This document shows positions 5,734-46,047 of a DNA stretch of 46,548 bases, one piece after another. Below the pieces are notes generated by a model that was not told the DNA's origin, did not search any database, and saw only the letters and a program-made list of their open reading frames with translations. The DNA comes from Clostridia bacterium (GTDB lineage Bacteria; Bacillota; Clostridia; Oscillospirales; CAG-272): contig JAFTKL010000027.1 in the NCBI GenBank assembly GCA_017453285.1, positions 1 to 46,548 of the forward strand, written 5' to 3'. How positions within the stretch are numbered: position 1 is the stretch's first letter; every line of letters starts with the position of its first letter. Both the position numbers and the translations under genes were made by a program.

Positions 5734-6387
5734 TCAGTTTGCGTTCTCGATTGCGTTTGTGATAAGCTCGATGAAGTACTGCGACGGCTCAAGCTCGGGG
5801 TCGTAGTCGAAGAGCTGACCGTAGCCGATATTTCCGTTCGAGTTCTCAAGATAAGGTGTGTAGACCAGACCGTCGCCAAAGCAGATCCAGAAGCCCTCAA
5901 GCTCGCCAAGATCATACTCGGCATCCGTGCGGACAAATCCGTTTTTCTCTGCAAGCGCGGTCTTTATCCTTCTTGCATCGCGGTCGGACAGCGTGCAGAT
6001 ACGGTAGTCCTCCTCGTCCTCGTACTGCCAGATGAGCAGCGTCTCGCCCTCAAAGAGCATCTCACGCTCAAGCGGTGAGGCAAAGCTCTGCGTCTCTGTC
6101 TTCATCCCGATAAGCGTGTCGGCAAAATGGCTGTCGGTGACGGGCGGCTCCGTGTTTCCTACGTGGTCCTCTTGCCCGGGAGCTTCGCTGTTCTTTTGCG
6201 AGAACAGTCCGACAAGCAGCGAGAGTGTGAGCGACATCACGAGCACCGTGCAGGCGCAAAGCGCGAGCACGCGGCGCAGGGGAGCGTATCTTTTCTTTGG
6301 CAGAGCGACCTGCGCTTCAAAGATAAATCTGTCGTCGATCGAGCCGATGGCATCCATCAGAAGCTCGCCGCGTTTGTTTTCTCTCAT
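5734..6387 (-). CDS. Single-pass membrane protein, putative anti-sigma partner (module 1)
   Basis: ATGA start/stop overlap with the upstream sigma gene. The N-terminal motif LLMDAIGSIDDRFIFEA is shared with the ORFs at 40136 and 44477. A basic stretch and one TM helix (VLALCACTVLVMSLTLSLLVGLF) follow. Confidence 0.7.
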   Translation of the reverse strand: MRENKRGELLMDAIGSIDDRFIFEAQVALPKKRYAPLRRVLALCACTVLVMSLTLSLLVGLFSQKNSEAPGQEDHVGNTEPPVTDSHFADTLIGMKTETQSFASPLEREMLFEGETLLIWQYEDEEDYRICTLSDRDARRIKTALAEKNGFVRTDAEYDLGELEGFWICFGDGLVYTPYLENSNGNIGYGQLFDYDPELEPSQYFIELITNAIENAN

Positions 6388-6938
6388 AGCGTCACGTCCT
6401 CCTCTCCAAGCACTCTCCGCAGCTCCTCACGGGTGCGGTGAAGGGATGTCTTGACCTTGGAGACGCTGATGCCGAGCCTCTTCGCTATAACGTCGACGGG
6501 GTCGGAGAAGAAATATCTGCGCACGAATATCACGCGTTTTTCTTCCTCGAGCTCGCCAAGAAAGCGATTTATGATCTCTGTCAGCCGTCCGCTCTGGTAT
6601 TGTTCCTCGATACTGCAGCTATCGGGGATACATTCGTCAAGCTCGGAGCATAGATTTTCAAATCCTCCTCGCTTTTGACGGTGCTGTGAGCGAAATCTGC
6701 TGATCGACAGCGCGCGGATGATCTTCGAGAGATATGCACCCAGATAAATCGGGCGGTCGGTGGGCATCTGATTCCAAGCTCTGAGATAGGTGTCGTTGAC
6801 ACACTCATCGGCATCCTCTTGCGAGTTGAGTAAGGAATATGAAATACCCGACAGCATTCTCTCGTATTTGTGGCGCGTTTCGACTATCGCGTCCTCCGAG
6901 CGCTCCCAATACAGATCTACGATCTTGTAGTCCTCCAT
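6384..6938 (-). CDS. RNA polymerase sigma factor, sigma-70 family (ECF-like), paralog 1
   Basis: 184 aa. Region 2 (DECVNDTYLRAW) and a region 4 HTH (VIAKRLGISVSKVKTSLHRTREEL) are present. It is paralogous to 39586..40143 and 43926..44480. Confidence 0.85.
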   Translation of the reverse strand: MEDYKIVDLYWERSEDAIVETRHKYERMLSGISYSLLNSQEDADECVNDTYLRAWNQMPTDRPIYLGAYLSKIIRALSISRFRSQHRQKRGGFENLCSELDECIPDSCSIEEQYQSGRLTEIINRFLGELEEEKRVIFVRRYFFSDPVDVIAKRLGISVSKVKTSLHRTREELRRVLGEEDVTL

Positions 6939-6962
6939 GGTCTGCCTTCCTTTCTTTTTTGT

Positions 6963-7004
6963 GCCTTCACCCTATATGTCGCCAAACGTAGCGGTTTGGT
7001 TACA
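6963..7004 (-). promoter_or_regulatory. Conserved upstream motif of the sigma paralogs (candidate autoregulated promoter), copy 1
   Basis: The - strand reads tgtaac-N20-catata-gggtgaaggc, ending 24 nt before the start codon. The same architecture occurs at 39519-39561 and 43834-43877. Confidence 0.4.
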
Positions 7005-23736: not shown

Positions 23737-23964
23737 GTGTGGAATTTATTATACCACAGATAGATGTATTTTTCAATAGTTATCCGAAAAAATACAATTT
23801 TTTTATCCCGAGAGGAGCAAAAGGGGCGCAGTACTTGACAAAAGCTCGAGTTGATGTTATAATTTAATTAAAAAAACAAAAAATTTTTGTAAAAGTGTAA
23901 TATTTTGAAATTTTTGTTGACTTATACTGTAAAAGGGTAACTTATCCTACATAAAGGAGGCTCT

Positions 23965-35295: not shown

Positions 35296-37302
35296 GTGAG
35301 ACGAACAGCTTCAATTCTGATAATAACGGCGATGCTCCTCGCAGTACTTTTGTCGCTGACGACCGCATCCGCCGCAGAACCGAAATTTTCTACGGATAAA
35401 ACTGTGTACAAGGTCGGAGAGCCGATAATGGTCACCGCATCGAGCGACAACGCGGGCGGTACAGATTGGGTCGGCATCACACCAAAGGACAAAAAGGACC
35501 TCGGAAATCTTACCTGGATATACACCAAGGACACCTCCACAACCTTTGACATACGCAAAGCACCCAATTGGACGACCAACAAAACGCTTATCAAGTACGA
35601 GACCTTCCCCGCAGGCGAATACCTCGTGTATTTTATGCCGAACGACCTCAATTTCAAAGGCAATGAGGATAAGGCACTCGGAGTGATAGAAATAGTTATA
35701 GAGAACGACGACAGATACCCCGTAAAAGCGCCGATCGACGCGAACTATTATATATATGACCTCGATAGCGGCATCTCGGACGGCGTTATCAATATAACGC
35801 TCCCCGCAGAGCACGGCGCGGACGATATAGAGGTCTGGTGGGGCGACGAAAACGGCAGACTCGCAGGCTACACTATGCTCGCGCGATTCAAGGCGCCCAC
35901 GAAGAACGGACCTGTGAAGTTCTACTACGAGCTTGACCGCCGCACCTTTATTCCCGCAGGTGCGACCAGACTTATGATCTACAGCTGCAGCGACGAGCAC
36001 GGCGAGAGCGAGGTAGTTTACTCTGTGCCGCTCGGCAACGCGCAGAGCTACGGCTTTCCCGAGGGCGAGCCTCTGCTCGAGTTCGAGGTCATCAGCGACA
36101 CCCACGTTCACGACGAGACGAGCGCGGCGAATTTCAAGAACGCGCTCAAGGATATCGCACTCAACAGCCCGAACTCCGCAGGCATCTTCCTTGTCGGAGA
36201 TATGGTAGAGAACGGCGGAGATCCTGCTCAGTGGGAGCAGTTCTGGGATACTTATGACTCGGTCGGAGCGGCACCCGAGATATATCTCGGTATAGGTGAT
36301 CACGATCTTCTTGATTACGCAAGCTATGGCGAGGCGGTCGAGAGCTTTATATCTCAGATACGTATGCCCGAGGGTGCCGATCGTACCGACGGCGTGCCAT
36401 ACTACGACCTCTGGCTTGGCGACTACCACTTCATAGTTCTCGGCGACGCCGACGGACTTGCGGAGGGTGAGACCGCGCGCATAGGTGAGGCGCAGTACGA
36501 TTGGCTTGAAGAAAAGCTTTCGGAGGATAACAATTCCCGTCCCGTCTTCCTCTTTATGCATCAGTCGCTCAAAGCTACCGTCGCGGGAAGCGCGGTAAAC
36601 GCAGGCAGATGGGGAATTGAGGACGGCGAGAGACTGCAGAAAATACTCGACTCTCACCCCGAGATCGTGATGTTCAACGGTCACTCGCATTGGACGCTTG
36701 ACGCGGATAATAGCATATACGCGCCCAAAAACAGCGCGGCGATATTCAACACCGCGTCGGTAAGCTATCTGTGGCAGTCCTACGATCTGCCAACGGGCGA
36801 GAGACTTGAGGGAAGTCAGGGTTACTACGTCAAGGTCTATAAGGATAGCGTTGTAGTGCTCGGGCGTGATTTTGCAAATGGTAAATGGGTGTCCTCGGCA
36901 CAGTTCGTGCTTGAAGATAAGACAACGCCCGAGAAGATAGATACGAACGAGCTCGAAAAGCTTATCAAAGACGCTGAGGCTATAGATAAGACCAAGTACA
37001 CAGAGAAGAGTTACAACGCGCTTGCGGTAGTGCTTGAGGGCGCGAAAAAGGCACTCTCGGCAACAGCGCAGACCGAGATCGACGGCGCGGAAAAGTCGCT
37101 CGCGGCGGCGATCGGCGCGCTTGAAGAGATAAAGACAAACGGCGACGGGGAAGAGACTGCTCCGCCCGAGACACCAAAGCCTACCGAAGAGAGCACTACA
37201 GCTCCCGAGGATAAGGGCGGCTGCGGATCGAGCTTCTCAGCCCTCGGCGTGCTTCTCGTATGCACAGCGGGCGCAAGCCTTGTGCTCAAAAAGAGAAGAT
37301 AA
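35296..37302 (+). CDS. Secreted calcineurin-like metallophosphoesterase, tandem paralog 2
   Basis: GTG start. It is colinear with paralog 1 (SDTHVH, GDMVE, GDHD, GHSH) and has a FIVAR-like segment. The C-terminus is GCGSSFSALGVLLVCTAGASLVLKKRR. Confidence 0.8.
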   Translation: MRRTASILIITAMLLAVLLSLTTASAAEPKFSTDKTVYKVGEPIMVTASSDNAGGTDWVGITPKDKKDLGNLTWIYTKDTSTTFDIRKAPNWTTNKTLIKYETFPAGEYLVYFMPNDLNFKGNEDKALGVIEIVIENDDRYPVKAPIDANYYIYDLDSGISDGVINITLPAEHGADDIEVWWGDENGRLAGYTMLARFKAPTKNGPVKFYYELDRRTFIPAGATRLMIYSCSDEHGESEVVYSVPLGNAQSYGFPEGEPLLEFEVISDTHVHDETSAANFKNALKDIALNSPNSAGIFLVGDMVENGGDPAQWEQFWDTYDSVGAAPEIYLGIGDHDLLDYASYGEAVESFISQIRMPEGADRTDGVPYYDLWLGDYHFIVLGDADGLAEGETARIGEAQYDWLEEKLSEDNNSRPVFLFMHQSLKATVAGSAVNAGRWGIEDGERLQKILDSHPEIVMFNGHSHWTLDADNSIYAPKNSAAIFNTASVSYLWQSYDLPTGERLEGSQGYYVKVYKDSVVVLGRDFANGKWVSSAQFVLEDKTTPEKIDTNELEKLIKDAEAIDKTKYTEKSYNALAVVLEGAKKALSATAQTEIDGAEKSLAAAIGALEEIKTNGDGEETAPPETPKPTEESTTAPEDKGGCGSSFSALGVLLVCTAGASLVLKKRR

Positions 37303-37447: not shown

Positions 37448-38317
37448 CTATTTTTTATTGATGCCCAAATTGAGTTCGTTGAGCAGTGCAGAGCCGAGGA
37501 TGAGGATTCCGCCGATGATCTCGAACGGCGAGATAGGCTCTTGCAGGATGGCGACCGAGGCTATCACCGCGACGAGCGGGTCGATATAGCTCATTACGGC
37601 GACCTCCTGACCGCGCATATCCTTGAGCGAGCTGAAATAAAGGCAATACGCGACGCCGGTGTGGATGAGTCCGACCGTCAGAAGCAGGAAAAGTCCGCTC
37701 ATTTGCAGGGAAGTGAGGTGAAATCCGCCCGTGAGCGCGACGTATGGGATCAGCACTATTGCCGCCGCCGAAAACTGCAGGAGCGTGCGCAGAATTCCGT
37801 CGATCTGCCCGATATATTTGTTGATCAGCACGACGGTTGCGTAAAGGCAAGCCGCGCCGAGTCCGAGAAGCACGCCGACCGTGCTCGTGCCGCCCGAGCC
37901 GATACCCGTGATCAGAAGCACGCCGAGCGTCGAGAATATAAAGCAGAGCCACTGCTTTGCCCTCATTTTTTCCTTGAAGAGAACGAGAGAGAGCAGAGTG
38001 ACGAGCACGGGCGCGAAATAATAGGCGAGCGTCGCGCTGGAGATGGTGGTGTAGCGGTAAGCCTCGAATAGAAGTATCCAATTAAATCCGAGCGCCGCGC
38101 CCGACAGAAAGAGCAGGGGGAGCGCGCGGCGGATGCTCTGCTTAGCGCCCGTGTTATCCTTCTTTCGCACAAGCATAAACGCGCCGACAAGAATTATAGC
38201 TAAGAGCGAGCGGTAGAGCGCGATCTCCGCGGCAGAGAGAGCTATTCCGCGCACGAAAAGACCGATCGTGCCGAAAATGACCATTGACGATATCAAAAAT
38301 ATCCGTGAGCGACCCAT
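37448..38317 (-). CDS. EamA/DMT-family transporter
   Basis: Ten predicted TM segments forming two EamA repeats. The start at 38317 follows RBS aaaggaggg. The upstream part of the longer ORF overlaps the promoter at 38346-38374. Confidence 0.8.
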   Translation of the reverse strand: MGRSRIFLISSMVIFGTIGLFVRGIALSAAEIALYRSLLAIILVGAFMLVRKKDNTGAKQSIRRALPLLFLSGAALGFNWILLFEAYRYTTISSATLAYYFAPVLVTLLSLVLFKEKMRAKQWLCFIFSTLGVLLITGIGSGGTSTVGVLLGLGAACLYATVVLINKYIGQIDGILRTLLQFSAAAIVLIPYVALTGGFHLTSLQMSGLFLLLTVGLIHTGVAYCLYFSSLKDMRGQEVAVMSYIDPLVAVIASVAILQEPISPFEIIGGILILGSALLNELNLGINKK

Positions 38318-38345
38318 ATCCGCCCTCCTTTTGTATGATGGGATA

Positions 38346-38374
38346 ATTATACCATAGAAATGTGCGTATTTCAA
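38346..38374 (-). promoter_or_regulatory. sigA-type promoter of the EamA gene
   Basis: - strand: TTGAAA (38369-38374), 17-nt spacer, TATAAT (38346-38351). Confidence 0.6.
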
Positions 38375-38415
38375 TATAAAAACAAAAAACAGACGGCATA
38401 TACCGTCTGTTTTTA

Positions 38416-38436
38416 TGGCACGGCGTAAGGGATTCG
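38416..38436 (-). repeat. Exact 21-nt copy of the 3' end of tRNA-Arg(ACG), with a copy of its terminator alongside
   Basis: tggcacggcgtaagggattcg at 38416-38436 equals 38599-38619. The flanking hairpins cagacgg..ccgtctg (38390-38410) and ccagacag..ctgtctgg (38571-38592) are also paralogous. Confidence 0.8.
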
Positions 38437-38598
38437 TTCTTGATTTTTGCTCGATGTTTCGGATTTGATCAAGGTAACATCTCGCAAAAATCTTTGGTCA
38501 CCGTTCACAAAACAACTCACAGGGTTGTTTTGTTCACTGCGTTAGAACCCCTCTTGTTGAAATAAAAAACCAGACAGTAGATACTGTCTGGTTTTTTA

Positions 38599-38675
38599 TG
38601 GCACGGCGTAAGGGATTCGAACCCCCGACCTTTTGGTTCGTAGCCAAACACTCTATCCAGCTGAGCTAACGCCGC
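38599..38675 (-). tRNA. tRNA-Arg (anticodon ACG), 77 nt, CCA encoded
   Basis: Manual cloverleaf. Acceptor is GCGGCGT/ACGCCGT. D arm is GCTC-AGCTGGATA-GAGT. Anticodon arm is TTTGG-CTACGAA-CCAAA. T arm is GGGGG-TTCGAAT-CCCTT. It closely resembles Firmicute Arg-ACG tRNAs. Confidence 0.85.
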
Positions 38676-38844
38676 ATGTGCGCTTTCGGAGTACTCTCTC
38701 AATCACGCCCGAATATTTTAACACATTTTTGTGCGTTTGTCAAGAGCTTTTTGAAAAATATTTTGGAAATCGAAAAAATATTTCAATCTGTTGAAAGACT
38801 TGCGTTAATGTGATATAATAAAGAAAAAGCTTAAAGGAGAAAAT

Positions 38845-39492
38845 ATGGCGACCTATCTGTTTGATTTCGACGGTACGCTGGTTGACTCGATGCCGACATA
38901 CGTGGCGGCGGTCTTGCGCGTGCTTGACGATCAGAATATAAAATACGACAAAAAGGCTTTGATCAAGACCATCACGCCGCTCGGCTTTGGCGGTACGGCG
39001 CGCTACTACATAGAGCAGTTTGGACTGACGCTCAGCATCGAGGAAATAGTGGCGCAGATGCACAAAAACGCGCTTGAGGGCTATCTTTATTCCGTGCCCG
39101 CAAAGCAAAATGTTATCAAGACCTTGCGCGCGCTCAGAGATCGCGGCGACGATCTGAGCGTTCTGACCGCGAGTCCGCACGCTACGCTCGATCCCTGCCT
39201 TCGTCGGCTAGGAATATACGATCTTTTTTCTAACGTGTGGTCCTGCGAGGATTTTGCCACCACTAAAGCCGACGTCAACATCTATCTGATGGCGGCAGAA
39301 AAGTTGGGTGTGGCGGTCGGCGAGATGATCTTCCTTGATGACAACTACAACGCAGATCTGACGGCAAAGCGCGCGGGCGCGAAGGTCGTGGGCGTCTACG
39401 ACGAATCCTCGGCAGAGTACGAGAGCGAGATCCGCGGTATTTGCGACGCGTATATCCGCGATTTTTATGAGCTTATCGACCTGAAATTATAA
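38845..39492 (+). CDS. HAD-superfamily hydrolase (subfamily IA phosphatase)
   Basis: Motif I FDFDGTLVDS, motif II LTAS, motif IV FLDDN. Confidence 0.85.
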   Translation: MATYLFDFDGTLVDSMPTYVAAVLRVLDDQNIKYDKKALIKTITPLGFGGTARYYIEQFGLTLSIEEIVAQMHKNALEGYLYSVPAKQNVIKTLRALRDRGDDLSVLTASPHATLDPCLRRLGIYDLFSNVWSCEDFATTKADVNIYLMAAEKLGVAVGEMIFLDDNYNADLTAKRAGAKVVGVYDESSAEYESEIRGICDAYIRDFYELIDLKL

Positions 39493-39518
39493 ATTTTTCA
39501 ACTTTTTTTGCAGGGAAG

Positions 39519-39561
39519 TGTAATAATCGGGCATATTTTTCTGTCTATTAGGGTGAAGGGC
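39519..39561 (+). promoter_or_regulatory. Conserved upstream motif of the sigma paralogs, copy 2
   Basis: tgtaat-N20-ctatta-gggtgaagggc, ending 25 nt before the ATG. Confidence 0.4.
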
Positions 39562-39585
39562 AATCTTTAGAGAGGAGTTTGGACT

Positions 39586-40143
39586 ATGGAAGACAAAAGA
39601 ATAGTGGATCTCTATTGGATGCGCTCCGAGAGTGCGATCAGCGAGACCGACAAGAAATACGGCAAATATTGCCGCTACATAGCCGAGCGCATACTCGAGA
39701 GCGAGGAGGACGCGCACGAGGTGCAGAATGACACCTATCTTCAAGTATGGAACACCGTGCCGCCAAATCGCCCCGATCCGCTCAAACCGTATGTAGGCGC
39801 GATCAGCCGAAATCTCTCGCTCAATCGCTACGAGGCGAAACACGCGCAGAAGCGAGAAGGAGTGCTTGGTGAGGCACTCGAGGAGCTGTCCGAGTGTATT
39901 GCGCAGAAAGATGACATCCCTACCGAGCGTGAAGAGCGACTTGGCGAGCTTCTCGATAGCTTCCTTGCGACACTTCCCAAGCGCACGAGAAGGGTATTTC
40001 TGCGCAGATATTGGTACGCGAGCAGTATAGAGGAGATCGCAAAGGACTACGGAATGAGCGAGAACCACGTGACCGTAATGCTTTGCAGAACCAGAAAAGC
40101 TCTGGCAGATATCTTGCAAAAGGAGGGATTTCTCAATGAATGA
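39586..40143 (+). CDS. RNA polymerase sigma factor, sigma-70 family (ECF-like), paralog 2
   Basis: MEDKRIVDLYWMRSESAISETDKKYG...EVQNDTYLQVW (region 2) and IAKDYGMSENHVTVMLCRTRKAL (region 4). Confidence 0.85.
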   Translation: MEDKRIVDLYWMRSESAISETDKKYGKYCRYIAERILESEEDAHEVQNDTYLQVWNTVPPNRPDPLKPYVGAISRNLSLNRYEAKHAQKREGVLGEALEELSECIAQKDDIPTEREERLGELLDSFLATLPKRTRRVFLRRYWYASSIEEIAKDYGMSENHVTVMLCRTRKALADILQKEGFLNE

Positions 40144-41617
40144 AAAGGATATTTTGAGGGCTCTGGGCGGCGTAAGTCCGGAATTTATAGCCGATGCCGC
40201 ACCGAAAGAAAAGCTCAGACATAGAAACCCGATGCTCTTTCGCCTTATAGCCGCGCTGATCTCGGTGGCGATACTTATGGGCGCGCTCTTCGCGGCGATC
40301 GTAGTGCCCAAAATAGTAAACGAGATGTTCGTCCCCACGCCGTCGCCCTACGGCAGATACGTGCTCTCGCTTGCAAAGTACCCAGAGATGATGCAGATGC
40401 CGAAGAGAGAGGATTATGCGAGCTACAGTGAATATTCTGATGCCAAATACGATTGGCAACGAGCAACGGCAAAGCAATCCGGGTCAGGCTTGAATGGAGA
40501 GTCTGTTGCTAAGCTTTATCCGTTCTTCTCTGATTTTACAAGTGAAGCTTTGAAGACGGATAAAGACGAAAATCTGGTCGTTTCGCCGCTTACAATGTAT
40601 ATGCTTCTTTCTATGCTCGGAGAGATGACCGACGGAGAGACGCGAGAGCAGATATTTGACGTTCTGAACATTTCGACAATCGAGGAACTGCGCACTCTGG
40701 CGAGTGGAGTATGGAATAGTACGTATTGTGATAACGGTGGCTTTAAATCTGTACTTGCTAACTCGGTATGGTTGGATGAGAGCATCAGATTTAACAGAAA
40801 CGTTGCACATACTTTGTCTGAAATCTATTATGCTTCGTCATTTGAGGGCGATTTTTCCAAGAAGAAATACGTTAGTGAATACTGCAATTGGATGAATGAG
40901 AATACGGGAAATCTGTTTGGATTCTCTCCGGAAAATGCGTCCGTTGACGATCAAACCTTGATGAGCATTGTCAGCACGCTGTATTTTGAATCCGCATGGA
41001 GAGATGATAACTCCTTTAACTCAAATAACAACTACAACGATGTTTTCCATACGAATTCGGGTGACGTTGAAGTAACCTATATGAAGAGAATGATCGAACG
41101 TCATCTTTTTGGTTCGGAATACTTTTATGCGACATATCTTGAGCTTGGTAGCGACGGAAAAATGTGGATCTTTCTTCCCGATGAAGAAGACACTGTTGAG
41201 GACGTGTTGTCAAGTAAAGATTTTATGAACTTGGTAACCAAAGGAAACGGTGTTGAATGCAAGGAATATGAAATTACGCTATCCCTGCCAAAGTTTGATA
41301 TTACTTCACATGACAGCGCAGAAAAATATCTTGAAAGACTTGGAATAACCGATATCTTCGGCGCAAATGCTGACTTTTCACCCGTGACAGACAGTAATGT
41401 GGCTGTAGGAGAAATTCTGCAGGGAGCGCGCCTGAAAATAGACGAGGAAGGTGTTGTGGGCGGAGCGTATAGTGAAGCGGTGATTTATTACGGCGAACCA
41501 CTACCCCTTCAAAAGAATATCGATTTAGTAGTAAACCGTCCGTTTGTCGTTGCTATTACAACACGCGCAAACCTGCCGCTCTTTATCGGCGTCGTCAACG
41601 ATCCCACCAAAAATTGA
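40136..41617 (+). CDS. Single-pass membrane protein: anti-sigma-like N-terminus fused to an extracytoplasmic serpin domain
   Basis: 8-nt overlap with the sigma gene. It carries the shared N-motif DILRALGGVSPEFIADAAP and one TM helix. Serpin hallmarks occur in order: NLVVSPLTMYMLLSMLGEMTDGETREQI, NWMNENTGNLF, LPKFDI, LGITDIF, hinge KIDEEGVVGGAYS, NRPFVVAI. Confidence 0.8.
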   Translation: MNEKDILRALGGVSPEFIADAAPKEKLRHRNPMLFRLIAALISVAILMGALFAAIVVPKIVNEMFVPTPSPYGRYVLSLAKYPEMMQMPKREDYASYSEYSDAKYDWQRATAKQSGSGLNGESVAKLYPFFSDFTSEALKTDKDENLVVSPLTMYMLLSMLGEMTDGETREQIFDVLNISTIEELRTLASGVWNSTYCDNGGFKSVLANSVWLDESIRFNRNVAHTLSEIYYASSFEGDFSKKKYVSEYCNWMNENTGNLFGFSPENASVDDQTLMSIVSTLYFESAWRDDNSFNSNNNYNDVFHTNSGDVEVTYMKRMIERHLFGSEYFYATYLELGSDGKMWIFLPDEEDTVEDVLSSKDFMNLVTKGNGVECKEYEITLSLPKFDITSHDSAEKYLERLGITDIFGANADFSPVTDSNVAVGEILQGARLKIDEEGVVGGAYSEAVIYYGEPLPLQKNIDLVVNRPFVVAITTRANLPLFIGVVNDPTKN

Positions 41618-41631
41618 TATATTATCAAGAG

Positions 41632-41663
41632 ACCGCCTGCCGAGTTTTCGGCAGGCGGTTTTG
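41632..41663 (+). terminator. Intrinsic terminator; the identical sequence recurs at 45587
   Basis: accgcctgccgagttttcggcaggcggtttt. Confidence 0.85.
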
Positions 41664-41675
41664 TATTTGATGGAT

Positions 41676-42110
41676 GGACGGAAGTTCATTTTTAACCGAT
41701 ACGACATTGGACAGTCGAGGACGCCTGTCCCTACAAACAAGAGAGATAATCGCCGCGCGTTCGTCATTCAACACAACAACCTATTTCTATCTTGGCGGTA
41801 GGGGCGACCTGTGGTCGCCCGCTTTGAAACAAAAGTTACTTTGTGTCATACAACGGGCGAGATAGATGTTTTTTCTTTGGATTACAGACGGAAGTTCATT
41901 TTTTAACCGTAATGACTATTATCACCTCTCAGTCTGCATACAACTTCGTATCGAGTTTGCTTTGCAAACATCGGCAGACAGCTCTCCTCGAGGAGAGCCT
42001 TTAAGTATCATTGTTTTACGTTTTTTAGGACCGTCGGCAACTTGTTGCGCAACAAGTTGCGCAACAAGTTGCAGGGACGCACGGTCCCTACAATCAGAGA
42101 GATAATCCCC
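41676..42110. repeat. Array of GTAG-tagged REP-like palindromes and other hairpins (array B)
   Basis: Units at 41709-41734 (..cctgtcc-ctac), 41798-41820 (gtag-gggcgacc tgt ggtcgccc, opposite orientation) and 42028-42091 (ggaccgt...acggtcc-ctac). The block acggaagttcattttt(t)aaccg occurs at 41678 and 41888. Palindromes gtttgc/gcaaac and gctctcctcgaggagagc are also present. Confidence 0.65.
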
Positions 42111-42143
42111 ACGGTTTCGGTGGTCGACGGAACGTAAAATCTA

Positions 42144-42368
42144 TATCTCACTCTTCATAATAAAAAGAAACACGCGGTAGGTTGTCTGTCCGCGTGTTTC
42201 TACATCGCTATTAAATTAAACTCAGAAAGGGAATATCGTTATAGGTTACAGTATCCCAAACTTTCGTAGGGAATATCGTTACGAGTTATAACAAAACCCT
42301 TGACCAACCTCCATTCAAGTTCTTTGGCTCCACCTTTCTCGAAAGAAAGGTGGAAAAAACGCATCCCC
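42144..42368 (-). ncRNA. Conserved ~225-nt structured element, copy B
   Basis: Starts (ggggatgcg) 10 nt after the GH25 stop. Hairpin ccacctttc-tcgaaa-gaaaggtgg lies at 42330-42353. It carries the conserved ccaaagaacttgaa and gtttgggatactgtaa blocks. The terminator hairpin at 42167-42200 is followed by ttttt on the - strand, then attatgaagagtga. Confidence 0.45.
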
Positions 42369-42378
42369 AAAACTAACC

Positions 42379-43656
42379 TCAGAACCCGTTGAGTCCCCAT
42401 TTGATCATTATTTCTTTATAATTCTTGTATGCGTAGTTGAGGTCGAAAGAGCAGTTAAAGCCGTCGATCTTGCCCTCCTCGGAGTATTGCCACATACCGA
42501 GCTGCTTGCCGTACTTCTGCTCGTTCCAGGTCGGCTTTTCGGTGAGCGGGTAGCGCGCGTACCACACGTCGTAGAGCGTGAATATCTTCGCGCCGTCGAG
42601 GATGTAGGTCAGCCAATTGTGGTTGGAATAGAGCCCCGCATAGTAGCCCTCGGACTGAAGAAGCGTGATAAAACGCTCGCACATCTCGCTAAGGTAGTTC
42701 TTGCCGAGAGCCTCAAGTGAGGCATCCTCAAGGTCGAGATATATCGGGTACTCGAACTTCTTGCCCTCAAGATAGGAAAGCAGATCGCGCGCGTCCTTCT
42801 CGATGCCCTCAAGCGTGGTCGCATAGGTGTAGAAATAAACTCCGATCTCCAGTCCCGCGGCGCGCGCGCCCTCGTAGTCCATCTCAAATGTCGGCTCAAG
42901 TCCGCTCTTGGTGCTGCCTGCCTTCAGGATCACAAAATCAACACCCGAGTCGGCGATCTTCTTCCAATCGAGCGGCAGATAGTTGTCCTCTGTGTCGGTG
43001 CCGTGGTTCCAACGCGACACATCAATGCCGCTTGCCACCACCTCGGAGCTGCCCACGTAGGCATTCTCGAGAATGTCACTGTAGTAGACGTAATCGGCGG
43101 TGTAGGAAAACGAGCACTCGCAGACGTAGGTCGTGCATCCCGGCGTCGTCGCGGTCGGGCGCGTGGTGGTCACTTCAAAGCTGTGACCGAGTGAGTCGAT
43201 ATAGTCGGACGTGTATTCGTAGTCACACGCGCGGCAGGTGTAGTGCGTAAATCCCTCGGTCGTGCAGGTCGGTTCGGTTACTTCCTTTGCGAAGCTGTGC
43301 CCGTAGGGAGTCAGAAAATCCGAGTCGTACGCGTAGCCGCAGGCGCATTCGTAGTGCGTGTAGCCCTGAGCGGTGCAGGTGGGCGGATAGATAGACATAG
43401 TCGGCTTGTGCAGAGAGCAGGGAAGATCGCGCTCTACAACCTTGCCGCACTTCTTGCACGCGCTTTCCTCGGTTCCGAGGCGGTTGCACTCGGGCTCGAG
43501 CACCGTCTGCCACTCGCCAAACTCGTGCGCGCAGGGCAGACTCTCCTTTGGTATCTCAACATCGCCGTCGGGAGTATTGCTGCCGTCCGACGAGCAGGAG
43601 AGAAGAGAGAGCAAAAGAATAATGATAAATCCAAAAATAAATATTCTGGTCTTCAA
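42379..43656 (-). CDS. GH25 muramidase lipoprotein with N-terminal Cys-rich repeats
   Basis: TTG start with RBS ggagga and a lipobox (LSLLSC). There are about 4 Cys-rich modules. The GH25 signature is GIDVSRWNH...LDWKKIADSGVDFVILKAG...YFY...DLE...WQYS. Confidence 0.8.
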   Translation of the reverse strand: MKTRIFIFGFIIILLLSLLSCSSDGSNTPDGDVEIPKESLPCAHEFGEWQTVLEPECNRLGTEESACKKCGKVVERDLPCSLHKPTMSIYPPTCTAQGYTHYECACGYAYDSDFLTPYGHSFAKEVTEPTCTTEGFTHYTCRACDYEYTSDYIDSLGHSFEVTTTRPTATTPGCTTYVCECSFSYTADYVYYSDILENAYVGSSEVVASGIDVSRWNHGTDTEDNYLPLDWKKIADSGVDFVILKAGSTKSGLEPTFEMDYEGARAAGLEIGVYFYTYATTLEGIEKDARDLLSYLEGKKFEYPIYLDLEDASLEALGKNYLSEMCERFITLLQSEGYYAGLYSNHNWLTYILDGAKIFTLYDVWYARYPLTEKPTWNEQKYGKQLGMWQYSEEGKIDGFNCSFDLNYAYKNYKEIMIKWGLNGF

Positions 43657-43697
43657 AGAAATATCCTCCGAAAATGGTCATATATGCTAACGAGGAT

Positions 43698-43726
43698 ATT
43701 GTACCACAATTTGCCGCGCTTGTCAA
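43698..43726 (-). promoter_or_regulatory. sigA-type promoter of the GH25 gene
   Basis: - strand: TTGACA (43721-43726), 17-nt spacer, TACAAT (43698-43703) with an upstream TG. Confidence 0.6.
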
Positions 43727-43766
43727 TCCTATACGCACATCTGCCGCTTGGTAATATCTTCCGTGC

Positions 43767-43795
43767 TTGACGGAGGCGCGGCAGAGTGGTATAAT
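43767..43795 (+). promoter_or_regulatory. sigA-type promoter upstream of sigma paralog 3
   Basis: TTGACG (43767-43772), 17-nt spacer, TATAAT (43790-43795) with an upstream TG. Confidence 0.6.
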
Positions 43796-43833
43796 GAAAT
43801 AAATTTTAAAATTTTTAAAAAAATTTGAAATTT

Positions 43834-43877
43834 TGAAATATTCGCACATCGTTTTGCGTCTATATAGGTGAAAGGGC
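43834..43877 (+). promoter_or_regulatory. Conserved upstream motif of the sigma paralogs, copy 3
   Basis: tgaaat-N20-ctatat-aggtgaaagggc. Confidence 0.4.
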
Positions 43878-43925
43878 CTTTCAAATCTTTCGATTCTTTC
43901 AATCCACAATGAAAGGAGTGACGGT

Positions 43926-44480
43926 ATGGATGATAAGCAAATTGTAGAACTCTTTTGGGAACGTTCCGAGGATGCAATTGCCGAGACCGATAGAAAATAC
44001 GGCAGATATATTTTGTTCATAGCCCAAAACGTGCTTTCTGATGACGAGGACGCACGCGAGGTGCAGAATGACACCTATCTGCGCACTTGGGATAGCATTC
44101 CGCCCGAGCGACCGACTGCGCTGAGAGCCTACGTCGGCGCAATATGCCGAAATCTTGCGCTCAGCAGATACAGAAGAAAATATGCGGAGAAACGCCAAGG
44201 TTGCGTGGATACCGCGATCGACGAGCTTGCCGACTGCCTGCCCGACGGGAATGACGGCGACCGCGTTGCAAGCGAGAGGATAGGTGATGCGCTCAACAGA
44301 TTTTTAGAGGGGCTTGAGCCGAACGAGAGAAAGGTGATCGTGCTGAGGTATTGGTATATGTGCAGTATCGACCGCATCGCCGAGGAATGCTCGATGAACA
44401 AAAACACCGTCGCAACGGTGCTTTTCAGAAAAAGACGAGAGCTTAAAGCTTTCTTAGAAAAAGAGGGGGTAAACGTATGA
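43926..44480 (+). CDS. RNA polymerase sigma factor, sigma-70 family (ECF-like), paralog 3
   Basis: MDDKQIVELFWERSEDAIAETDRKYG...EVQNDTYLRTW and IAEECSMNKNTVATVLFRKRREL. Confidence 0.85.
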   Translation: MDDKQIVELFWERSEDAIAETDRKYGRYILFIAQNVLSDDEDAREVQNDTYLRTWDSIPPERPTALRAYVGAICRNLALSRYRRKYAEKRQGCVDTAIDELADCLPDGNDGDRVASERIGDALNRFLEGLEPNERKVIVLRYWYMCSIDRIAEECSMNKNTVATVLFRKRRELKAFLEKEGVNV

Positions 44481-45532
44481 AGAAAGAAGATATTTTCAAT
44501 GCCTTTGAAGAGCTTGACCCGAAGTTTATAGAGGAGGCAGCGCCGAAGATGAATAAAGTAAAAAAGAACACCTTTGTTTTGCGCATCGCCGCAGTTGCCG
44601 CGTGTGTCGCCCTGCTCGTAAGTGTCGTAGTGGTAAGCACGCTTATGCTTAACCGAGAGGATGAGGATCCACCCGACGTGCCGAGTGAGACGATCACGCC
44701 CGACGAAAAGGCAGAGTACATTATGTATATTGATGTCGGTATGGATGCAAATGCTCCTCCTTTGGAGACTGATAAATTCACCGTAAAAACGGATTCAGCA
44801 GAAGAACTGGACCTTTCGTGTTTGAATAGAATAGAGAAAGAAAGCGTGGAAAATACTACAAATCAAATATCACTTGATTTGTTAAATAACCATTGGAAAC
44901 TAGAATACAATAGGACATTCGAAAGAGGTCTTTATCATAGCGACAATTTTTCACATCTCGGTACCTATGATGAATATGTCTCAGATGATGCAGTGGTATA
45001 TATCAATAAAATCAATGGAGAACTGATGTTTTTATCAGACAAGGAAATCGATAGAACAGCAGAAGGTGATTTCAGCATAGAAGAAGGCAAACAAGCGGCG
45101 AAAGAGATACTTGCTATTCTGTATGGCGAAGAAGTTCTTGAATATTATGGAGAACCAATATTTAGCGATACAGTTTTGGAGAATAATCTCAGTCTTGGAC
45201 AGGAAGTCTTGATTAAAGTTGTTTATGAAAAGGCAGCCTTAGGGTACAGAACCGACGATAGAATTACCGTTAAATTCAATAGAGAAGGAAAGTTGGTTTC
45301 TATCAATGCTATGAAACGGAATACTATGACGCGTGTAGAAGAAGATATTACCAAGGAACAGACTGACAAAGCATTGAATGTGTTGAAGCAGCAATTTCCG
45401 AATGATAAAATAGAATCAGCAATAATATCTGTTGCCGCTGATGGAAAATATTATATAACAACTACTGTTATAAGATATCTTTCAATGCATCCTGTACGTT
45501 ACCCGCTGAAGTTAGCGATGAATATACAGTAA
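44477..45532 (+). CDS. Single-pass membrane protein, putative anti-sigma partner (module 3) with an unrecognised ectodomain
   Basis: ATGA overlap with the sigma gene, N-motif DIFNAFEELDPKFIEEAAP and a TM helix (IAAVAACVALLVSVVVVSTLML). The ~270-aa ectodomain is encoded by much more AT-rich DNA. Confidence 0.75.
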   Translation: MKKEDIFNAFEELDPKFIEEAAPKMNKVKKNTFVLRIAAVAACVALLVSVVVVSTLMLNREDEDPPDVPSETITPDEKAEYIMYIDVGMDANAPPLETDKFTVKTDSAEELDLSCLNRIEKESVENTTNQISLDLLNNHWKLEYNRTFERGLYHSDNFSHLGTYDEYVSDDAVVYINKINGELMFLSDKEIDRTAEGDFSIEEGKQAAKEILAILYGEEVLEYYGEPIFSDTVLENNLSLGQEVLIKVVYEKAALGYRTDDRITVKFNREGKLVSINAMKRNTMTRVEEDITKEQTDKALNVLKQQFPNDKIESAIISVAADGKYYITTTVIRYLSMHPVRYPLKLAMNIQ

Positions 45533-45586
45533 ACGTATTGCATACTCAAGCGTACGTTTGTGCGCTTGAGTATTATAATCTAACCA

Positions 45587-45618
45587 ACCGCCTGCCGAGT
45601 TTTCGGCAGGCGGTTTTT
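45587..45618 (+). terminator. Intrinsic terminator, identical to the one at 41632
   Basis: accgcctgccgagttttcggcaggcggttttt, preceded by a second hairpin atactcaagcg..cgcttgagtat (45543-45574). Confidence 0.85.
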
Positions 45619-45824
45619 GTGCGCTTATCGTTAAATACATCTTCACTTGTTATCCGCTTTTTCTTTTGACTCATAAGGTGCAAAAGAAAAAGCTACCAAA
45701 AAGAAAACACCGAAAAGGGTGTTTCGCTCGTTGCGACGAGCGACCGACGTTTCGCCGTCGGCACACGACAAACTTTTGAAAAAGTTTGATCAAAACTTTC
45801 CTGCGGCGCACCCCATGAGGTTTA

Positions 45825-46047
45825 GATGTCACTCTTCACAATAAAATAGCAACCCGTGGTAGCCTGCTGTCCACGGGTTGCTTCCTCGCATTGATACTAA
45901 ATCACACAGCGAGAATATCGCTTTGGTTTACAGTATCCCAAACATCTTTAGAGAATATCGGCTAGAGTCACGTACAAACTCTATAACAACCCTCATTCAA
46001 GTTCTTTTGGTTCTTTTCTCCGAAAGAAAAGAACGAAAATCGCATCC
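45825..46047 (-). ncRNA. Conserved ~225-nt structured element, copy C
   Basis: ggatgcg follows the partial GH25 stop codon directly. Hairpin ttcttttc..gaaaagaa lies at 46011-46033. The terminator hairpin gcaacccgtgg..ccacgggttgc (45849-45881) is followed by a T-rich tract on the - strand, then attgtgaagagtga. Confidence 0.45.

What the first reader, a model, noticed from the sequence alone, without database searches (positions are those of the whole stretch)
40136..41617. Serpin domain fused to an anti-sigma-like membrane anchor and translationally coupled to an ECF-like sigma factor
The ORF overlaps the stop of sigma paralog 2 by 8 nt. It opens with the ~20-aa cytoplasmic motif shared by the partners of the two other sigma paralogs and has a single TM helix. 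The remaining ~390 aa contain the ordered serpin hallmarks: NLVVSPLT..GETREQI, NWMNENTG, LPKF, LGITDIF, the hinge EEGVVGGAYS and NRPFVVAI. Two pieces of established knowledge are relevant. Inhibitory serpins are suicide substrates that rearrange drastically when their reactive-centre loop is cut. Many anti-sigma factors are inactivated by a first extracytoplasmic cleavage followed by intramembrane proteolysis. My inference is that this protein could act as a protease bait, wiring exposure to an extracellular (host or competitor) protease directly to sigma factor release. I am not aware of such a signalling architecture having been characterised.
Basis: partly seen in the sequence, partly recalled or inferred. 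Interest (0 to 1): 0.8.

Follow-up and report, generated by a model that had tools for sequence, protein, structure and literature searches.

The report
Serpin fused to an anti-sigma anchor
A gut Clostridia gene joins a membrane-anchored protease inhibitor (serpin) to the short tail that normally holds a sigma factor in check, an arrangement found in many gut species, so consumption of the inhibitor by proteases may switch on its own resupply.

Summary
ORF 40136-41617 (+) encodes 493 aa and overlaps the stop codon of an ECF-type sigma gene (39586-40143) by 8 nt. It has a about 31-aa cytoplasmic two-helix segment, one N-in transmembrane helix, an ordered about 70-aa extension and a full serpin domain (Pfam E = 5.6e-56).

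The fusion is a large family, not a one-off. In 80 loci from gut and rumen Clostridia, all 53 serpins with a cytoplasmic motif directly follow an ECF sigma gene. None of the 30 with lipoprotein or plain signal sequences do. Two different sigma/N-terminal-motif classes carry the same serpin module. The same N-terminal module sits on non-serpin ectodomains that also follow sigma genes. The reactive-loop hinge is the most conserved stretch and the specificity region is variable, as in inhibitory serpins. A conserved ECF-type promoter precedes sigma, and a terminator follows the serpin.

Best reading: an autoregulated sigma plus serpin-anti-sigma module that links protease attack at the cell surface to transcription, at least of more serpin. 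Sigma binding, inhibition and signal transfer are all inferred. Reactive-loop cleavage alone cannot be the classical site-1 cut. I found no published description. I rate it a new variant of known kinds, with interest 0.72.

The parts
39519..39560 (+). ECF-type promoter upstream of the sigma gene: -35 TGTAAT (39519-39524), 17-nt spacer, -10 TGTCTA (39542-39547), then the conserved TAGGGTGAAGGG
   Evidence: The same motif lies upstream of all three sigma paralogs in the window. The consensus tGTAAC(c)-N16-GCGTCTaTATAGGTGAAAGG was built from the 42 of 54 sigma upstream regions that could be anchored on the downstream GTGAA-like element, most of which fit it by eye; no significance test was run on this set.
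39586..40143 (+). ECF-type sigma factor, 185 aa (sigma paralog 2)
   Evidence: TIGR02937 scores 61.3 bits against a cut-off of 42.9. Sigma70_r4_2 gives 8.8e-12. Sigma70_r2 scores 23.5 bits, just under its cut-off of 24. The closest solved structures are ECF SigE chains.
40120..40143 (+). Coupling junction: RBS AAGGAGG (40120-40126), serpin start ATG at 40136, sigma stop TGA at 40141-40143 (8-nt overlap)
   Evidence: Read directly from the sequence. In homologous loci the modal arrangement is a 4-nt ATGA overlap, seen in 25 of 50.
40136..40228 (+). Cytoplasmic anti-sigma-like module, residues 1-31: two short helices (3-9 and 15-21) followed by a K/R cluster
   Evidence: AF2 secondary structure. 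The motif is shared with the partners of sigma 1 and sigma 3. It co-occurs strictly with an upstream ECF sigma. A profile of it matches 6068 cluster representatives, always at the N-terminus. It has no Pfam match.
40244..40309 (+). Single transmembrane span (uncharged residues 37-58; AF2 helix 32-63), oriented N-in / C-out
   Evidence: Hydropathy and the positive-inside count; AF2 helix.
40310..40531 (+). Extracytoplasmic tether (residues 59-74, low pLDDT) and ordered pre-serpin extension (residues 75-132, containing the family motif YPEMxxxP...Y.W)
   Evidence: pLDDT is below 50 at residues 64-68 and 84-96 over residues 71-130. The extension is conserved in both the anti-sigma-fused and the lipoprotein forms. 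Tether length varies from 55 to 124 aa across the family.
40532..41605 (+). Serpin domain, residues 133-490
   Evidence: Pfam PF00079 E = 5.6e-56. PDB sequence matches to Serpin-ZX, conserpin, tengpin, PAI-1 and alpha-1-antitrypsin. Foldseek E about 1e-29 to serpins.
41444..41506 (+). Reactive-centre loop, residues 437-457: EEGVVGGAYSEAVIYYGEPLP. G439 is P15. P1 is ambiguous (G453 or E454), with Y451/Y452 as alternative scissile sites
   Evidence: Alignment to the family and to the alpha-1-antitrypsin PPE anchor. AF2 models residues 439-450 as a strand inserted next to s5A.
41629..41662 (+). Intrinsic terminator that ends the two-gene operon
   Evidence: 15-bp stem with 9 GC pairs, followed by a T-run.
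43834..45532 (+). Paralogous module 3: ECF promoter (43834-43862), sigma 3 (43926-44480), and a partner with the same N-terminal motif and an unrelated 351-aa body (44477-45532)
   Evidence: In a strain about 94% identical at the nucleotide level, sigma 3 plus the first 24 codons of this partner are joined to the serpin body.
5734..7004 (-). Paralogous module 1: ECF promoter (7004-6976), sigma 1 (6938-6384), and a partner with the N-terminal motif (6387-5734)

Best explanation
The gene encodes a single-pass membrane protein. Its first about 30 residues face the cytoplasm and act as the anti-sigma partner of the ECF sigma factor encoded just upstream. Its extracytoplasmic part is a loop-insertion-competent, probably inhibitory, serpin.

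Sigma and the serpin-anti-sigma are made together from an ECF-type promoter that sigma itself probably recognises. This forms a closed loop. While intact serpin-anti-sigma is in the membrane, sigma is sequestered.

The ectodomain or its tether is then removed. The remaining stub is degraded, presumably by a site-2 protease and cytoplasmic proteases. Sigma is freed and transcribes the operon again, and possibly other genes elsewhere in the genome.

The module would therefore be a demand-driven resupply circuit for a single-use inhibitor, and a protease sensor.

Shown here: the architecture, the topology prediction, the serpin fold, the conservation pattern of the reactive loop, the strict genomic coupling to sigma, and the conserved promoter and terminator.

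Inferred: sigma binding by residues 1-30, protease inhibition, which proteases are sensed, and every step of signal transfer.
For: 1. Serpin domain and fold: Pfam 5.6e-56, PDB sequence matches, AF2 pLDDT 84.8 with Foldseek matches around 1e-29.

2. Topology: N-in/C-out by the positive-inside count, 5.9 against 1.5 K/R, in 100 of 100 sequences.

3. Coupling to sigma: of 83 serpin ORFs in 80 loci, 50 have the N-terminal motif and the same sigma type directly upstream, usually with a 4-nt overlap. Three have a second motif (MxRYxKANExIHxP) and a different ECF sigma upstream. Thirty have lipoprotein or plain signal sequences and no sigma. Fisher p is about 1e-19.

4. The N-terminal module is generic. 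A profile of it matches 6068 cluster representatives, always at residues 1-55. Non-serpin carriers (one with DUF4367, one with RHS/YD repeats) also follow an ECF sigma with a 4-nt overlap. The three window paralogs show the same pattern.

5. Natural swap: in a strain about 94% identical at the nucleotide level, sigma 3 and the first 24 codons of its partner are joined to the serpin body. The N-terminus stays with its own sigma.

6. Co-variation: distances between N-terminal segments track sigma distances (rho 0.42, partial 0.34) better than they track distances between serpin domains on the same chain (rho 0.32, partial 0.18). This is weak support.

7. Reactive loop: the hinge P17-P8 is the most conserved stretch (0.89 bits against 1.71 for the serpin core). 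P7-P2' is variable (2.3 bits, up to 3.4). The hinge is the same in sigma-coupled and lipoprotein forms.

8. Self-contained operon: a conserved ECF promoter upstream of sigma, seen in three window copies and in most of the 42 (of 54) sigma upstream regions that could be anchored and aligned, judged by eye; a terminator directly after the serpin; and no other conserved neighbour in 80 loci.

9. Precedents: bifidobacterial serpin genes are induced by proteases and autoregulated through a two-component system (PMC8201313). RsiV is an anti-sigma factor that is the direct receptor of a host enzyme (PMC4183432 and PMC5014341).
Against: - No known anti-sigma domain model matches the N-terminus. At about 25-30 residues and without a zinc motif, it is shorter than characterised anti-sigma domains.
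- Reactive-loop cleavage leaves almost the whole ectodomain attached, so the link to intramembrane proteolysis is missing.
- The tether is variable in length and partly disordered (55-124 aa). This argues against rigid conformational transmission and raises the question of why proteases would not cut it constitutively.
- AF2 places the loop in the inserted (latent-like) state, which would be non-inhibitory if it were the resting state.
- The window protein's own loop is atypical: hinge GVVGGAY, and a P1 of Gly or Glu followed by Pro.
- No regulon beyond the operon was identified.
Confidence: 0.55

Rival explanations
1. Set-point loop without sensing. The anti-sigma anchor only gives negative feedback on an autoregulated operon, so that the cell keeps a fixed density of membrane-anchored serpin. 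Sigma is freed by ordinary turnover or dilution of the protein, not by a protease signal.
For: The only conserved components are sigma and the serpin-anti-sigma, with an autoregulatory promoter and a terminator. No step that transfers a signal from the loop to the membrane is evident. The tether is variable and flexible.
Against: Lipoprotein-anchored members of the same serpin family do without any sigma, so anchoring alone does not need this wiring. Two distinct sigma/anti-sigma classes have acquired the same serpin module. The same N-terminal module carries many other ectodomains, as expected of sensor domains. Consumption by proteases is itself turnover, so this model merges with the main one whenever proteases are present.
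Confidence: 0.2
2. Non-inhibitory serpin as a binding or conformational sensor. The serpin fold serves as a ligand-binding or metastable switch domain, as in hormone-binding globulins or ovalbumin-like serpins. It senses something other than protease activity.
For: AF2 models the loop as already inserted. The window protein's loop is atypical. No inhibition data exist for this family.
Against: The hinge fits the inhibitory pattern (P15 Gly, small P12-P10) and is the most conserved stretch. The specificity region varies as in inhibitory serpins. The nearest sequence relatives with solved structures are inhibitors. Characterised gut bacterial serpins inhibit elastase-like proteases (PMC5127057, PMC8201313, PMC13376542).
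Confidence: 0.1
3. Ordinary exported serpin. The N-terminus is only an unusually long signal or anchor sequence. The neighbouring sigma merely drives expression and is controlled in some other way.
For: The N-terminal motif matches no anti-sigma model. A published serpin survey notes membrane-anchored prokaryotic serpins without any regulatory link (PMC8233489).
Against: A conserved 25-residue cytoplasmic motif precedes the K/R cluster. It occurs only when a sigma gene lies directly upstream (53 of 53 against 0 of 30). It travels with its sigma in a natural recombinant. It is found on unrelated ectodomains that also follow sigma genes. The window protein has no signal-peptidase-type site near the hydrophobic span (and the sequence itself).
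Confidence: 0.07
4. Sensor of the cell's own or competitors' secreted proteases rather than host proteases. For example, it could guard surface proteins against subtilisin-like enzymes, as proposed for cellulosomal serpins.
For: Clostridial dockerin-fused serpins inhibit subtilisins (PMC8201313). The family is also common in rumen organisms. The window loop has aromatic residues (Y451, Y452) that would suit chymotrypsin- or subtilisin-like enzymes.
Against: The family consensus P2-P1-P1' is Gly-Ala-Ala. From general knowledge of protease specificity, this fits elastase-type enzymes better. This rival is a variant of the main model (a different protease source), not an alternative mechanism.
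Confidence: 0.25

Closest known systems
SigmaV-RsiV (Bacillus subtilis, Clostridioides difficile)
   Same: A single-pass N-in anti-sigma factor is cotranscribed with an ECF sigma. Its ectodomain is the direct receptor of a host defence enzyme. Activation is by regulated intramembrane proteolysis, and the operon is autoregulated (PMC4183432, PMC5014341, PMC6066255, PMC9044953).
   Different: RsiV's ectodomain is not a serpin, and it binds lysozyme non-covalently. Its site-1 cut is made by signal peptidase close to the membrane. Here the N-terminal module is much shorter and matches no known model, the ligand would be captured covalently, and no site-1 site or protease is identified.
SigmaI-RsgI systems of cellulolytic clostridia
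   Same: Several paralogous sigma/anti-sigma pairs occur in one clostridial genome. Each anti-sigma factor has a conserved short N-terminal cytoplasmic module and an interchangeable extracellular sensor domain (mentioned in PMC7826278).
   Different: SigmaI is not a canonical ECF sigma, and RsgI has its own RsgI_N domain. Its sensors bind polysaccharides, not proteases. The sigma here has standard sigma-2 and sigma-4 regions.
Bifidobacterial serpin operon controlled by a two-component system
   Same: This is a gut commensal serpin whose transcription is induced by proteases and is autoregulated (PMC8201313, its references 135 and 138).
   Different: Sensing is by a separate histidine kinase and the serpin is a separate exported protein. 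Here the sensor and the inhibitor would be one polypeptide, and the regulator is an ECF sigma.
Tengpin (Thermoanaerobacter tengcongensis serpin)
   Same: It is a bacterial serpin from the Firmicutes with an N-terminal extension ahead of the serpin domain. It is the best structural match (2vh4, 2pef). Its extension controls the transition from the native to the latent state (PMC1905895).
   Different: No sigma link has been reported for tengpin. The extension here shows no detected sequence similarity to tengpin's, since the match starts at residue 131. Whether it docks on the serpin body in a state-dependent way is untested.
Siropins, miropin, BMG-1 and other host-associated bacterial serpins
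   Same: They are exported serpins of gut or oral bacteria that inhibit host elastase-like proteases (PMC5127057, PMC13376542).
   Different: They are described as soluble, signal-peptide-bearing or intracellular inhibitors, with no transcriptional role.
BlaR1/MecR1 beta-lactam sensors (comparison from general knowledge)
   Same: An extracellular domain derived from a resistance or target protein is covalently modified by the threat it detects, and this triggers proteolysis-dependent gene induction.
   Different: The folds differ and the signal transducer is a zinc protease domain. The output is cleavage of a repressor, not release of a sigma factor.

Membership tests
Serpin superfamily (PF00079) | Significant match to the family profile over the whole domain | tested here: met
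   E = 5.6e-56, 190.8 bits against a cut-off of 27. Residues 133-490 cover model positions 9-370 of 370.
Serpin superfamily (PF00079) | Serpin fold (three sheets, helices A-I, C-terminal reactive loop) | tested here: met
   AF2 pLDDT 84.8 and pTM 0.79. Foldseek finds 415 PDB matches at E <= 0.001, and the listed top matches (best 50 shown) are serpins, with TM-score up to 0.87 normalised to the target.
Inhibitory serpins | Hinge consensus that permits loop insertion: P17 Glu, P15 Gly, P14 small or non-charged, P12-P9 short side chains | tested here: met
   In the window protein: E437, G439, V440, then G442-G443-A444-Y445. In the family: E-E-G-V/C-x-A-A-A-Y/F-T, with P12-P10 mostly Ala (about 80-90% in the largest class). 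P14 is Val or Cys rather than the usual Thr or Ser. This is the most conserved stretch of the alignment.
Inhibitory serpins | Forms a covalent, SDS-stable complex with a target protease and inhibits it | not testable with these tools
   This needs biochemistry. AF2 models the loop as inserted. That shows compatibility with insertion but says nothing about the resting state.
ECF (group 4) sigma factors (the upstream gene) | Only sigma-2 and sigma-4 regions, about 160-200 aa, and a match to the ECF superfamily model | tested here: met
   185 aa. TIGR02937 scores 61.3 bits against a cut-off of 42.9. Sigma70_r4_2 passes its cut-off, while Sigma70_r2 is borderline (23.5 against 24).
ECF (group 4) sigma factors (the upstream gene) | Autoregulated promoter with an AAC-type -35 and a CGT-type -10 | tested here: inconclusive
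   A conserved motif of this type, TGTAAC-N16-(G)CGTCT, lies upstream of all three window paralogs and fits most of the 42 (of 54) sigma upstream regions that could be anchored and aligned, judged by eye. A stricter pattern written first matched only 4 of 51 upstream regions, against 0.6 in shuffles. Whether this sigma uses the promoter was not tested.
Membrane-bound anti-sigma factors | Encoded directly downstream of, and cotranscribed with, the sigma gene | tested here: met
   8-nt overlap in the window. In the homologous loci, 53 of 53 motif-bearing serpins follow a sigma, and the modal overlap is 4 nt.
Membrane-bound anti-sigma factors | Cytoplasmic N-terminus, one transmembrane helix, extracytoplasmic C-terminal domain | tested here: met
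   Hydropathy and the positive-inside count; AF2 helix at residues 32-63. This is a prediction only.
Membrane-bound anti-sigma factors | Recognisable anti-sigma domain (class I four-helix/ZAS HxxxCxxC, RskA, zf-HC2, DUF4179 and similar) | tested here: not met
   Neither Pfam nor NCBIfam matches residues 1-132, even at E <= 10. There is no Cys/His motif. Only two short helices are predicted. If this is an anti-sigma module, it belongs to an undescribed, very short type.
Membrane-bound anti-sigma factors | Binds and inhibits its cognate sigma | not testable with these tools
Indirect support comes from strict co-occurrence, the natural swap and weak co-variation.
Anti-sigma factors controlled by regulated intramembrane proteolysis | Site-1 cleavage of the ectodomain followed by site-2 intramembrane cleavage | not testable with these tools
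   I identified no cleavage site or protease. The reactive loop is too far from the membrane in sequence terms to serve as site 1. Tether length varies from 55 to 124 aa.

The most novel reading that the evidence does not exclude
A suicide-substrate protease inhibitor has been recruited as the extracellular receptor of a transmembrane signalling protein. Covalent capture of, or attack by, a host or competitor serine protease on the serpin ectodomain leads to destruction of the anti-sigma anchor and release of an ECF sigma factor. On this reading, gut Clostridia read luminal protease activity directly and answer with more inhibitor, and possibly a wider regulon. The solution has been assembled on at least two different sigma/anti-sigma classes and is present in genomes from many gut and rumen Clostridia.
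Probability: 0.45. Interest if true: 0.85.

Novelty: new variant of a known kind. Interest (0 to 1): 0.72.

Why it matters
Luminal and neutrophil serine proteases are major effectors in gut physiology and inflammation, and bacterial serpins are being explored as therapeutics. It is not known how commensal Clostridia sense protease load.

This family would provide a direct, genetically compact protease-to-transcription switch: two genes, one promoter and a defined loop. It occurs in species-representative genomes of many gut and rumen Clostridia, including cultured strains such as Hominifimenecus sp. rT4P-3 and Pseudoflavonifractor phocaeensis An507.

It would add a new sensing principle, covalent capture by a suicide inhibitor, to ECF signalling. 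It would define a very short, undescribed anti-sigma module present in thousands of protein clusters. It could also be re-engineered as a protease biosensor by swapping the reactive loop.

If protease sensing is not confirmed, the finding still shows how a single-use inhibitor can be kept at a set level by fusing it to its own repressor module.

Tried and rejected
- Complex modelling. I tried to model the sigma/N-terminus complex with a linker fusion.
- Word-indexed profile search. A search with the N-terminal profile returned only 14 short fragments. The exhaustive search was needed to see the 6068 matches.
- Strict promoter pattern. A regular expression copied from the window matched only 4 of 51 sigma upstream regions. 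Re-anchoring on the downstream GTGAA element showed the motif is conserved but degenerate.
- Signal-peptidase site. I considered the conserved A-x-A-x-A-x-YP stretch after the membrane helix as a cryptic, RsiV-like signal-peptidase site. I downgraded this because the same stretch is present in the lipoprotein forms. It also lies 10 to more than 70 residues from the helix, too far for signal peptidase in many members. It looks like part of the ordered pre-serpin extension.
- Published gut serpins. I could not test whether siropins or BMG-1 belong to this family, because their sequences are not in the held papers.
- Literature. Searches for serpin with anti-sigma, with ECF sigma, and 'bacterial serpins' with sigma factor found no description of the fusion. 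The ECF re-classification paper does not mention serpins, and its supplements were not held.
- Extra regulon members. A search of the window found only the three sigma promoters and one weak match at 23896.
- Conserved partner genes. Neighbour clustering over 80 loci found no conserved partner such as a protease or transporter.
- RNA families. An Rfam scan of 38000-46548 found only a tRNA.


Full report
**1. What is in the window**

ORF 40136-41617 (+) encodes 493 aa. The upstream ORF 39586-40143 ends ...AAT GAA TGA. The downstream ATG at 40136 lies inside it, so the two genes share 8 nt. An AAGGAGG ribosome-binding site lies 9 nt upstream of that ATG.

The upstream protein is an ECF-type sigma factor. 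TIGR02937 scores 61.3 bits against a cut-off of 42.9 and Sigma70_r4_2 passes its cut-off. Sigma70_r2 is borderline at 23.5 bits against 24.

The downstream protein matches Pfam Serpin over the whole model (E = 5.6e-56, residues 133-490). It also matches solved inhibitory serpins by sequence: Serpin-ZX at 2.5e-31, then conserpin, tengpin, PAI-1 and alpha-1-antitrypsin.

An intrinsic terminator (41629-41662) follows directly.

An ECF-type promoter motif (TGTAAT-N17-TGTCTA, then TAGGGTGAAGGG) lies at 39519-39560. Near-identical copies precede the two other sigma paralogs, at 43834-43862 and 7004-6976 on the minus strand.

Those paralogs are followed, with 4-nt overlaps, by proteins of 351 and 217 aa. 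These open with the same roughly 24-residue motif, a K/R cluster and one hydrophobic span, but have unrelated bodies.

**2. Anatomy of the protein**

AF2 was run with a 52-sequence alignment and gave mean pLDDT 84.8 and pTM 0.79. It predicts:
- two short helices at residues 3-9 and 15-21 (pLDDT about 60, as expected for a segment that folds on a partner);
- a long helix at 32-63;
- a low-confidence tether at 64-68;
- an ordered extension at about 70-132 (pLDDT 84-96);
- the serpin core.

Residues 37-58 form the uncharged span. In 100 family members the 15 residues before the span hold 5.9 K/R on average and the 15 after it hold 1.5. The 'before' count is higher in every case. The N-terminus is therefore predicted to be cytoplasmic and the serpin outside.

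The window protein has no AxA-type signal-peptidase site near the span. The 31-residue conserved segment ahead of the K/R cluster does not look like the N-region of a signal peptide.

**3. The reactive loop**

With G439 as P15, the hinge reads E-E-G-V-V-G-G-A-Y-S. The family consensus is E-E-G-V/C-x-A-A-A-Y/F-T, followed by a variable stretch and then G-A-A-M-P-P-E. The P-P-E lines up with P3'-P5' of alpha-1-antitrypsin, so P1 is mostly Ala.

Column entropy is lowest in the hinge (0.89 bits, against 1.71 for the serpin core). It is high in P7-P2' (2.3 bits, peaking at 3.4). This is the pattern known for inhibitory serpins. It is the same in sigma-coupled and lipoprotein-anchored members.

The window protein and its closest relatives are atypical. 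They have Gly-Gly at P12-P11, a one-residue insertion, and a P1 that is formally Gly or Glu followed by Pro, with Tyr-Tyr just before. The target specificity of this particular protein is therefore open.

AF2 models residues 439-450 as a strand next to s5A. The best Foldseek matches are latent or cleaved serpins: tengpin 2vh4 and 2pef, latent antithrombin, and latent conserpin. This shows the loop can be accommodated in sheet A. It does not show what the resting state is.

**4. The fusion is a family**

A search of about 5.8 billion proteins gave 514 relatives at E <= 1e-10. Of the best 120, about 100 have the N-terminal motif plus a hydrophobic span. About 15 have lipoprotein-type or plain signal sequences instead.

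The 80 best loci come from Oscillospiraceae, Acutalibacteraceae, Ruminococcus and Lachnospiraceae. The hosts are human, mouse, chicken, rabbit and ruminant guts. Cultured strains are included.

I translated all ORFs in these loci. I searched them with a profile of the three window sigmas, a profile of the N-terminal 76 alignment columns, and the serpin domain. Of 83 serpin ORFs:
- 50 have the N-terminal motif and an ECF sigma ORF directly upstream on the same strand, with a modal 4-nt ATGA overlap;
- 30 have neither, and most of these have an L-x-A-C lipobox;
- 3 looked discordant.

Those 3 have a different N-terminal motif (MxRYxKANExIHxPxxLK) and a different, shorter ECF sigma upstream (Pfam r2, r4_2 and Sigma70_ECF). 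The true count is therefore 53 of 53 against 0 of 30. The same serpin module, including its pre-serpin extension, has been joined to two sigma/anti-sigma classes.

Clustering of all neighbours showed that sigma is the only conserved partner.

After anchoring on a downstream GTGAA-like element, 42 of the 54 sigma upstream regions could be aligned. They give the consensus tGTAAC(c)-N16-GCGTCTaTATAGGTGAAAGG, and most fit it by eye.

**5. Is the N-terminus an anti-sigma module?**

No Pfam or NCBIfam model matches it. It has no zinc motif and is very short. The case for an anti-sigma role is comparative.

- Co-occurrence with sigma is strict, as shown above.
- An exhaustive profile search of 1.84 billion cluster representatives found 6068 proteins at E <= 0.001. 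In the listed best matches the hit is at residues 1-55 in all but one.
- Among the best 145 of these, 52 carry a serpin. Others carry unrelated bodies of 160-708 aa, including DUF4367, RHS/YD repeats and many with no known domain.
- Two of the non-serpin carriers were looked up. Each follows a 186-aa ECF sigma with a 4-nt overlap.
- A contig from a strain about 94% identical at the nucleotide level carries GH25, sigma 3, and then a hybrid gene. The first 24 codons of that gene are those of the window's sigma-3 partner and the rest is the serpin. The crossover lies within the roughly 15 nt that encode the shared ...EAAPK motif. The short N-terminal segment stayed with its own sigma while the membrane helix and ectodomain were exchanged. 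This rests on a single metagenomic contig. However, a 15-nt overlap is an unlikely source of an assembly chimera at k = 141.
- Over 49 pairs, N-terminal distances follow sigma distances somewhat better than they follow distances between serpin domains on the same chain. This is weak support, and the pairs are not independent.

**6. How it most likely works**

Shown: the architecture, topology, fold, conservation pattern, coupling and promoter.

Inferred from established knowledge of ECF systems: residues 1-30 sequester sigma, and removal of the anti-sigma factor frees sigma to transcribe its own operon.

Inferred from serpin biology: the ectodomain is consumed one-for-one by target proteases.

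Together these give a demand-driven loop in which protease attack leads to more serpin. The two-gene operon with its own promoter and terminator, and the lack of other conserved neighbours, fit a module whose minimal output is itself.

The weak point is signal transfer. Loop cleavage occurs about 40 residues from the C-terminus and leaves a hyperstable body of about 390 residues on the membrane helix. It cannot be the ectodomain-trimming site-1 event. Three routes remain, and none was tested:
- (a) After loop insertion, the ordered extension is released and becomes cleavable. The analogy is tengpin, whose N-terminal region docks on the serpin body to trap the native state (PMC1905895).
- (b) The anchored serpin protects its own flexible tether until the local inhibitor is exhausted. 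Free protease then cuts the tether.
- (c) The serpin-protease complex is recognised and cleared.

The variable tether, often long and low in complexity (55-124 aa), argues against rigid conformational transmission and for a proteolytic step.

**7. Comparison with what is known**

The closest functional analogue is sigmaV-RsiV. There, an anti-sigma ectodomain is the receptor of a host enzyme and the signal passes by regulated proteolysis.

The closest regulatory analogue for serpins is the protease-induced, autoregulated bifidobacterial serpin operon, which uses a two-component system.

Modular clostridial anti-sigma factors with interchangeable sensors are known from sigmaI-RsgI. Modular serpin fusions are known from dockerin-bearing cellulosomal serpins.

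A serpin phylogeny paper notes membrane-anchored prokaryotic serpins but no regulatory link.

Searches for serpin together with anti-sigma, with ECF sigma, and 'bacterial serpins' with sigma factor found no description of the fusion. The ECF re-classification paper does not mention serpins in its main text. The paper library is incomplete, so prior description elsewhere cannot be excluded.

**8. Verdict**

- The architectural interpretation is supported and generalised.
- Novelty: a new variant of known kinds. It combines an ECF/anti-sigma system with a new sensor type and an undescribed minimal anti-sigma module, and it gives a bacterial serpin a regulatory role.
- Interest is 0.72. The most novel reading not excluded is a serpin acting as a covalent protease receptor. 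I give that reading probability 0.45 and interest 0.85 if true.

Noticed in passing
window 386-402, 41677-41693, 41887-41903 (+), extending about 60-110 nt: A repeated intergenic element with the core GACGGAAGTTCATTTTTAACCG.TACGAC.TTGGAC...GTC.CTACA occurs three times, against 0.02 expected by chance. Two copies lie in the 760-nt non-coding gap between the serpin terminator and the GH25 gene. It has no Rfam match.
   Followed up: partly
L083 (ENA ERZ27316686 k141_281374) compared with window 42136-44548 and 40193-41642: A related strain (about 94% nucleotide identity) carries a hybrid locus: GH25, sigma 3, and then the first 24 codons of the sigma-3 partner fused to the serpin body. This implies recombination within the shared N-terminal motif. 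It is seen on a single contig only.
   Followed up: yes
window 44477-45532 (+) and 6387-5734 (-): The partners of sigma 3 (351 aa) and sigma 1 (217 aa) share the N-terminal module, but their extracytoplasmic bodies match no Pfam or NCBIfam family. The sigma-1 pair is followed by a vWA-domain lipoprotein at 5705-4101 (-).
   Followed up: partly
window 42379-43656 (-) and 46048-46353 (-): A lipoprotein with Cys-rich repeats and a GH25 muramidase domain (PF01183, 2.2e-27) lies divergent from sigma 3. A second ORF ending in a very similar C-terminal sequence, apparently a shorter paralog, lies near the window end.
   Followed up: no
window 33217-35256 and 35296-37302 (+): Two tandem paralogous proteins of about 670 aa lie here. 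Each has a signal peptide, a metallophosphoesterase-like core (judged by eye from the sequence) and a C-terminal GCGSSFSA-plus-hydrophobic tail, suggesting surface anchoring. No domain search was run on them.
   Followed up: no
window 23896-23923 (+): A weak match to the ECF promoter pattern (TGTAAT-N16-TGACTT) lies upstream of the 696-aa ORF 23965-26055. That ORF has a paralog at 26067-27722. It is possibly a regulon member and possibly chance.
   Followed up: no
L023, L041, L076 and proteins P0014, P0015, P0023, P0050, P0077, P0081, P0083, P0085: A second class of sigma-coupled serpins has the N-terminal motif MxRYxKANExIHxPxxLK. Its ECF sigma is a distinct type of about 160 aa beginning ...ERWGDLVWRLA.
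   Followed up: partly
P0135 (681 aa): The top hit of the N-terminal profile matches in 11 separate stretches, not at the N-terminus. It looks like a repetitive or mis-called protein rather than a family member.
   Followed up: no
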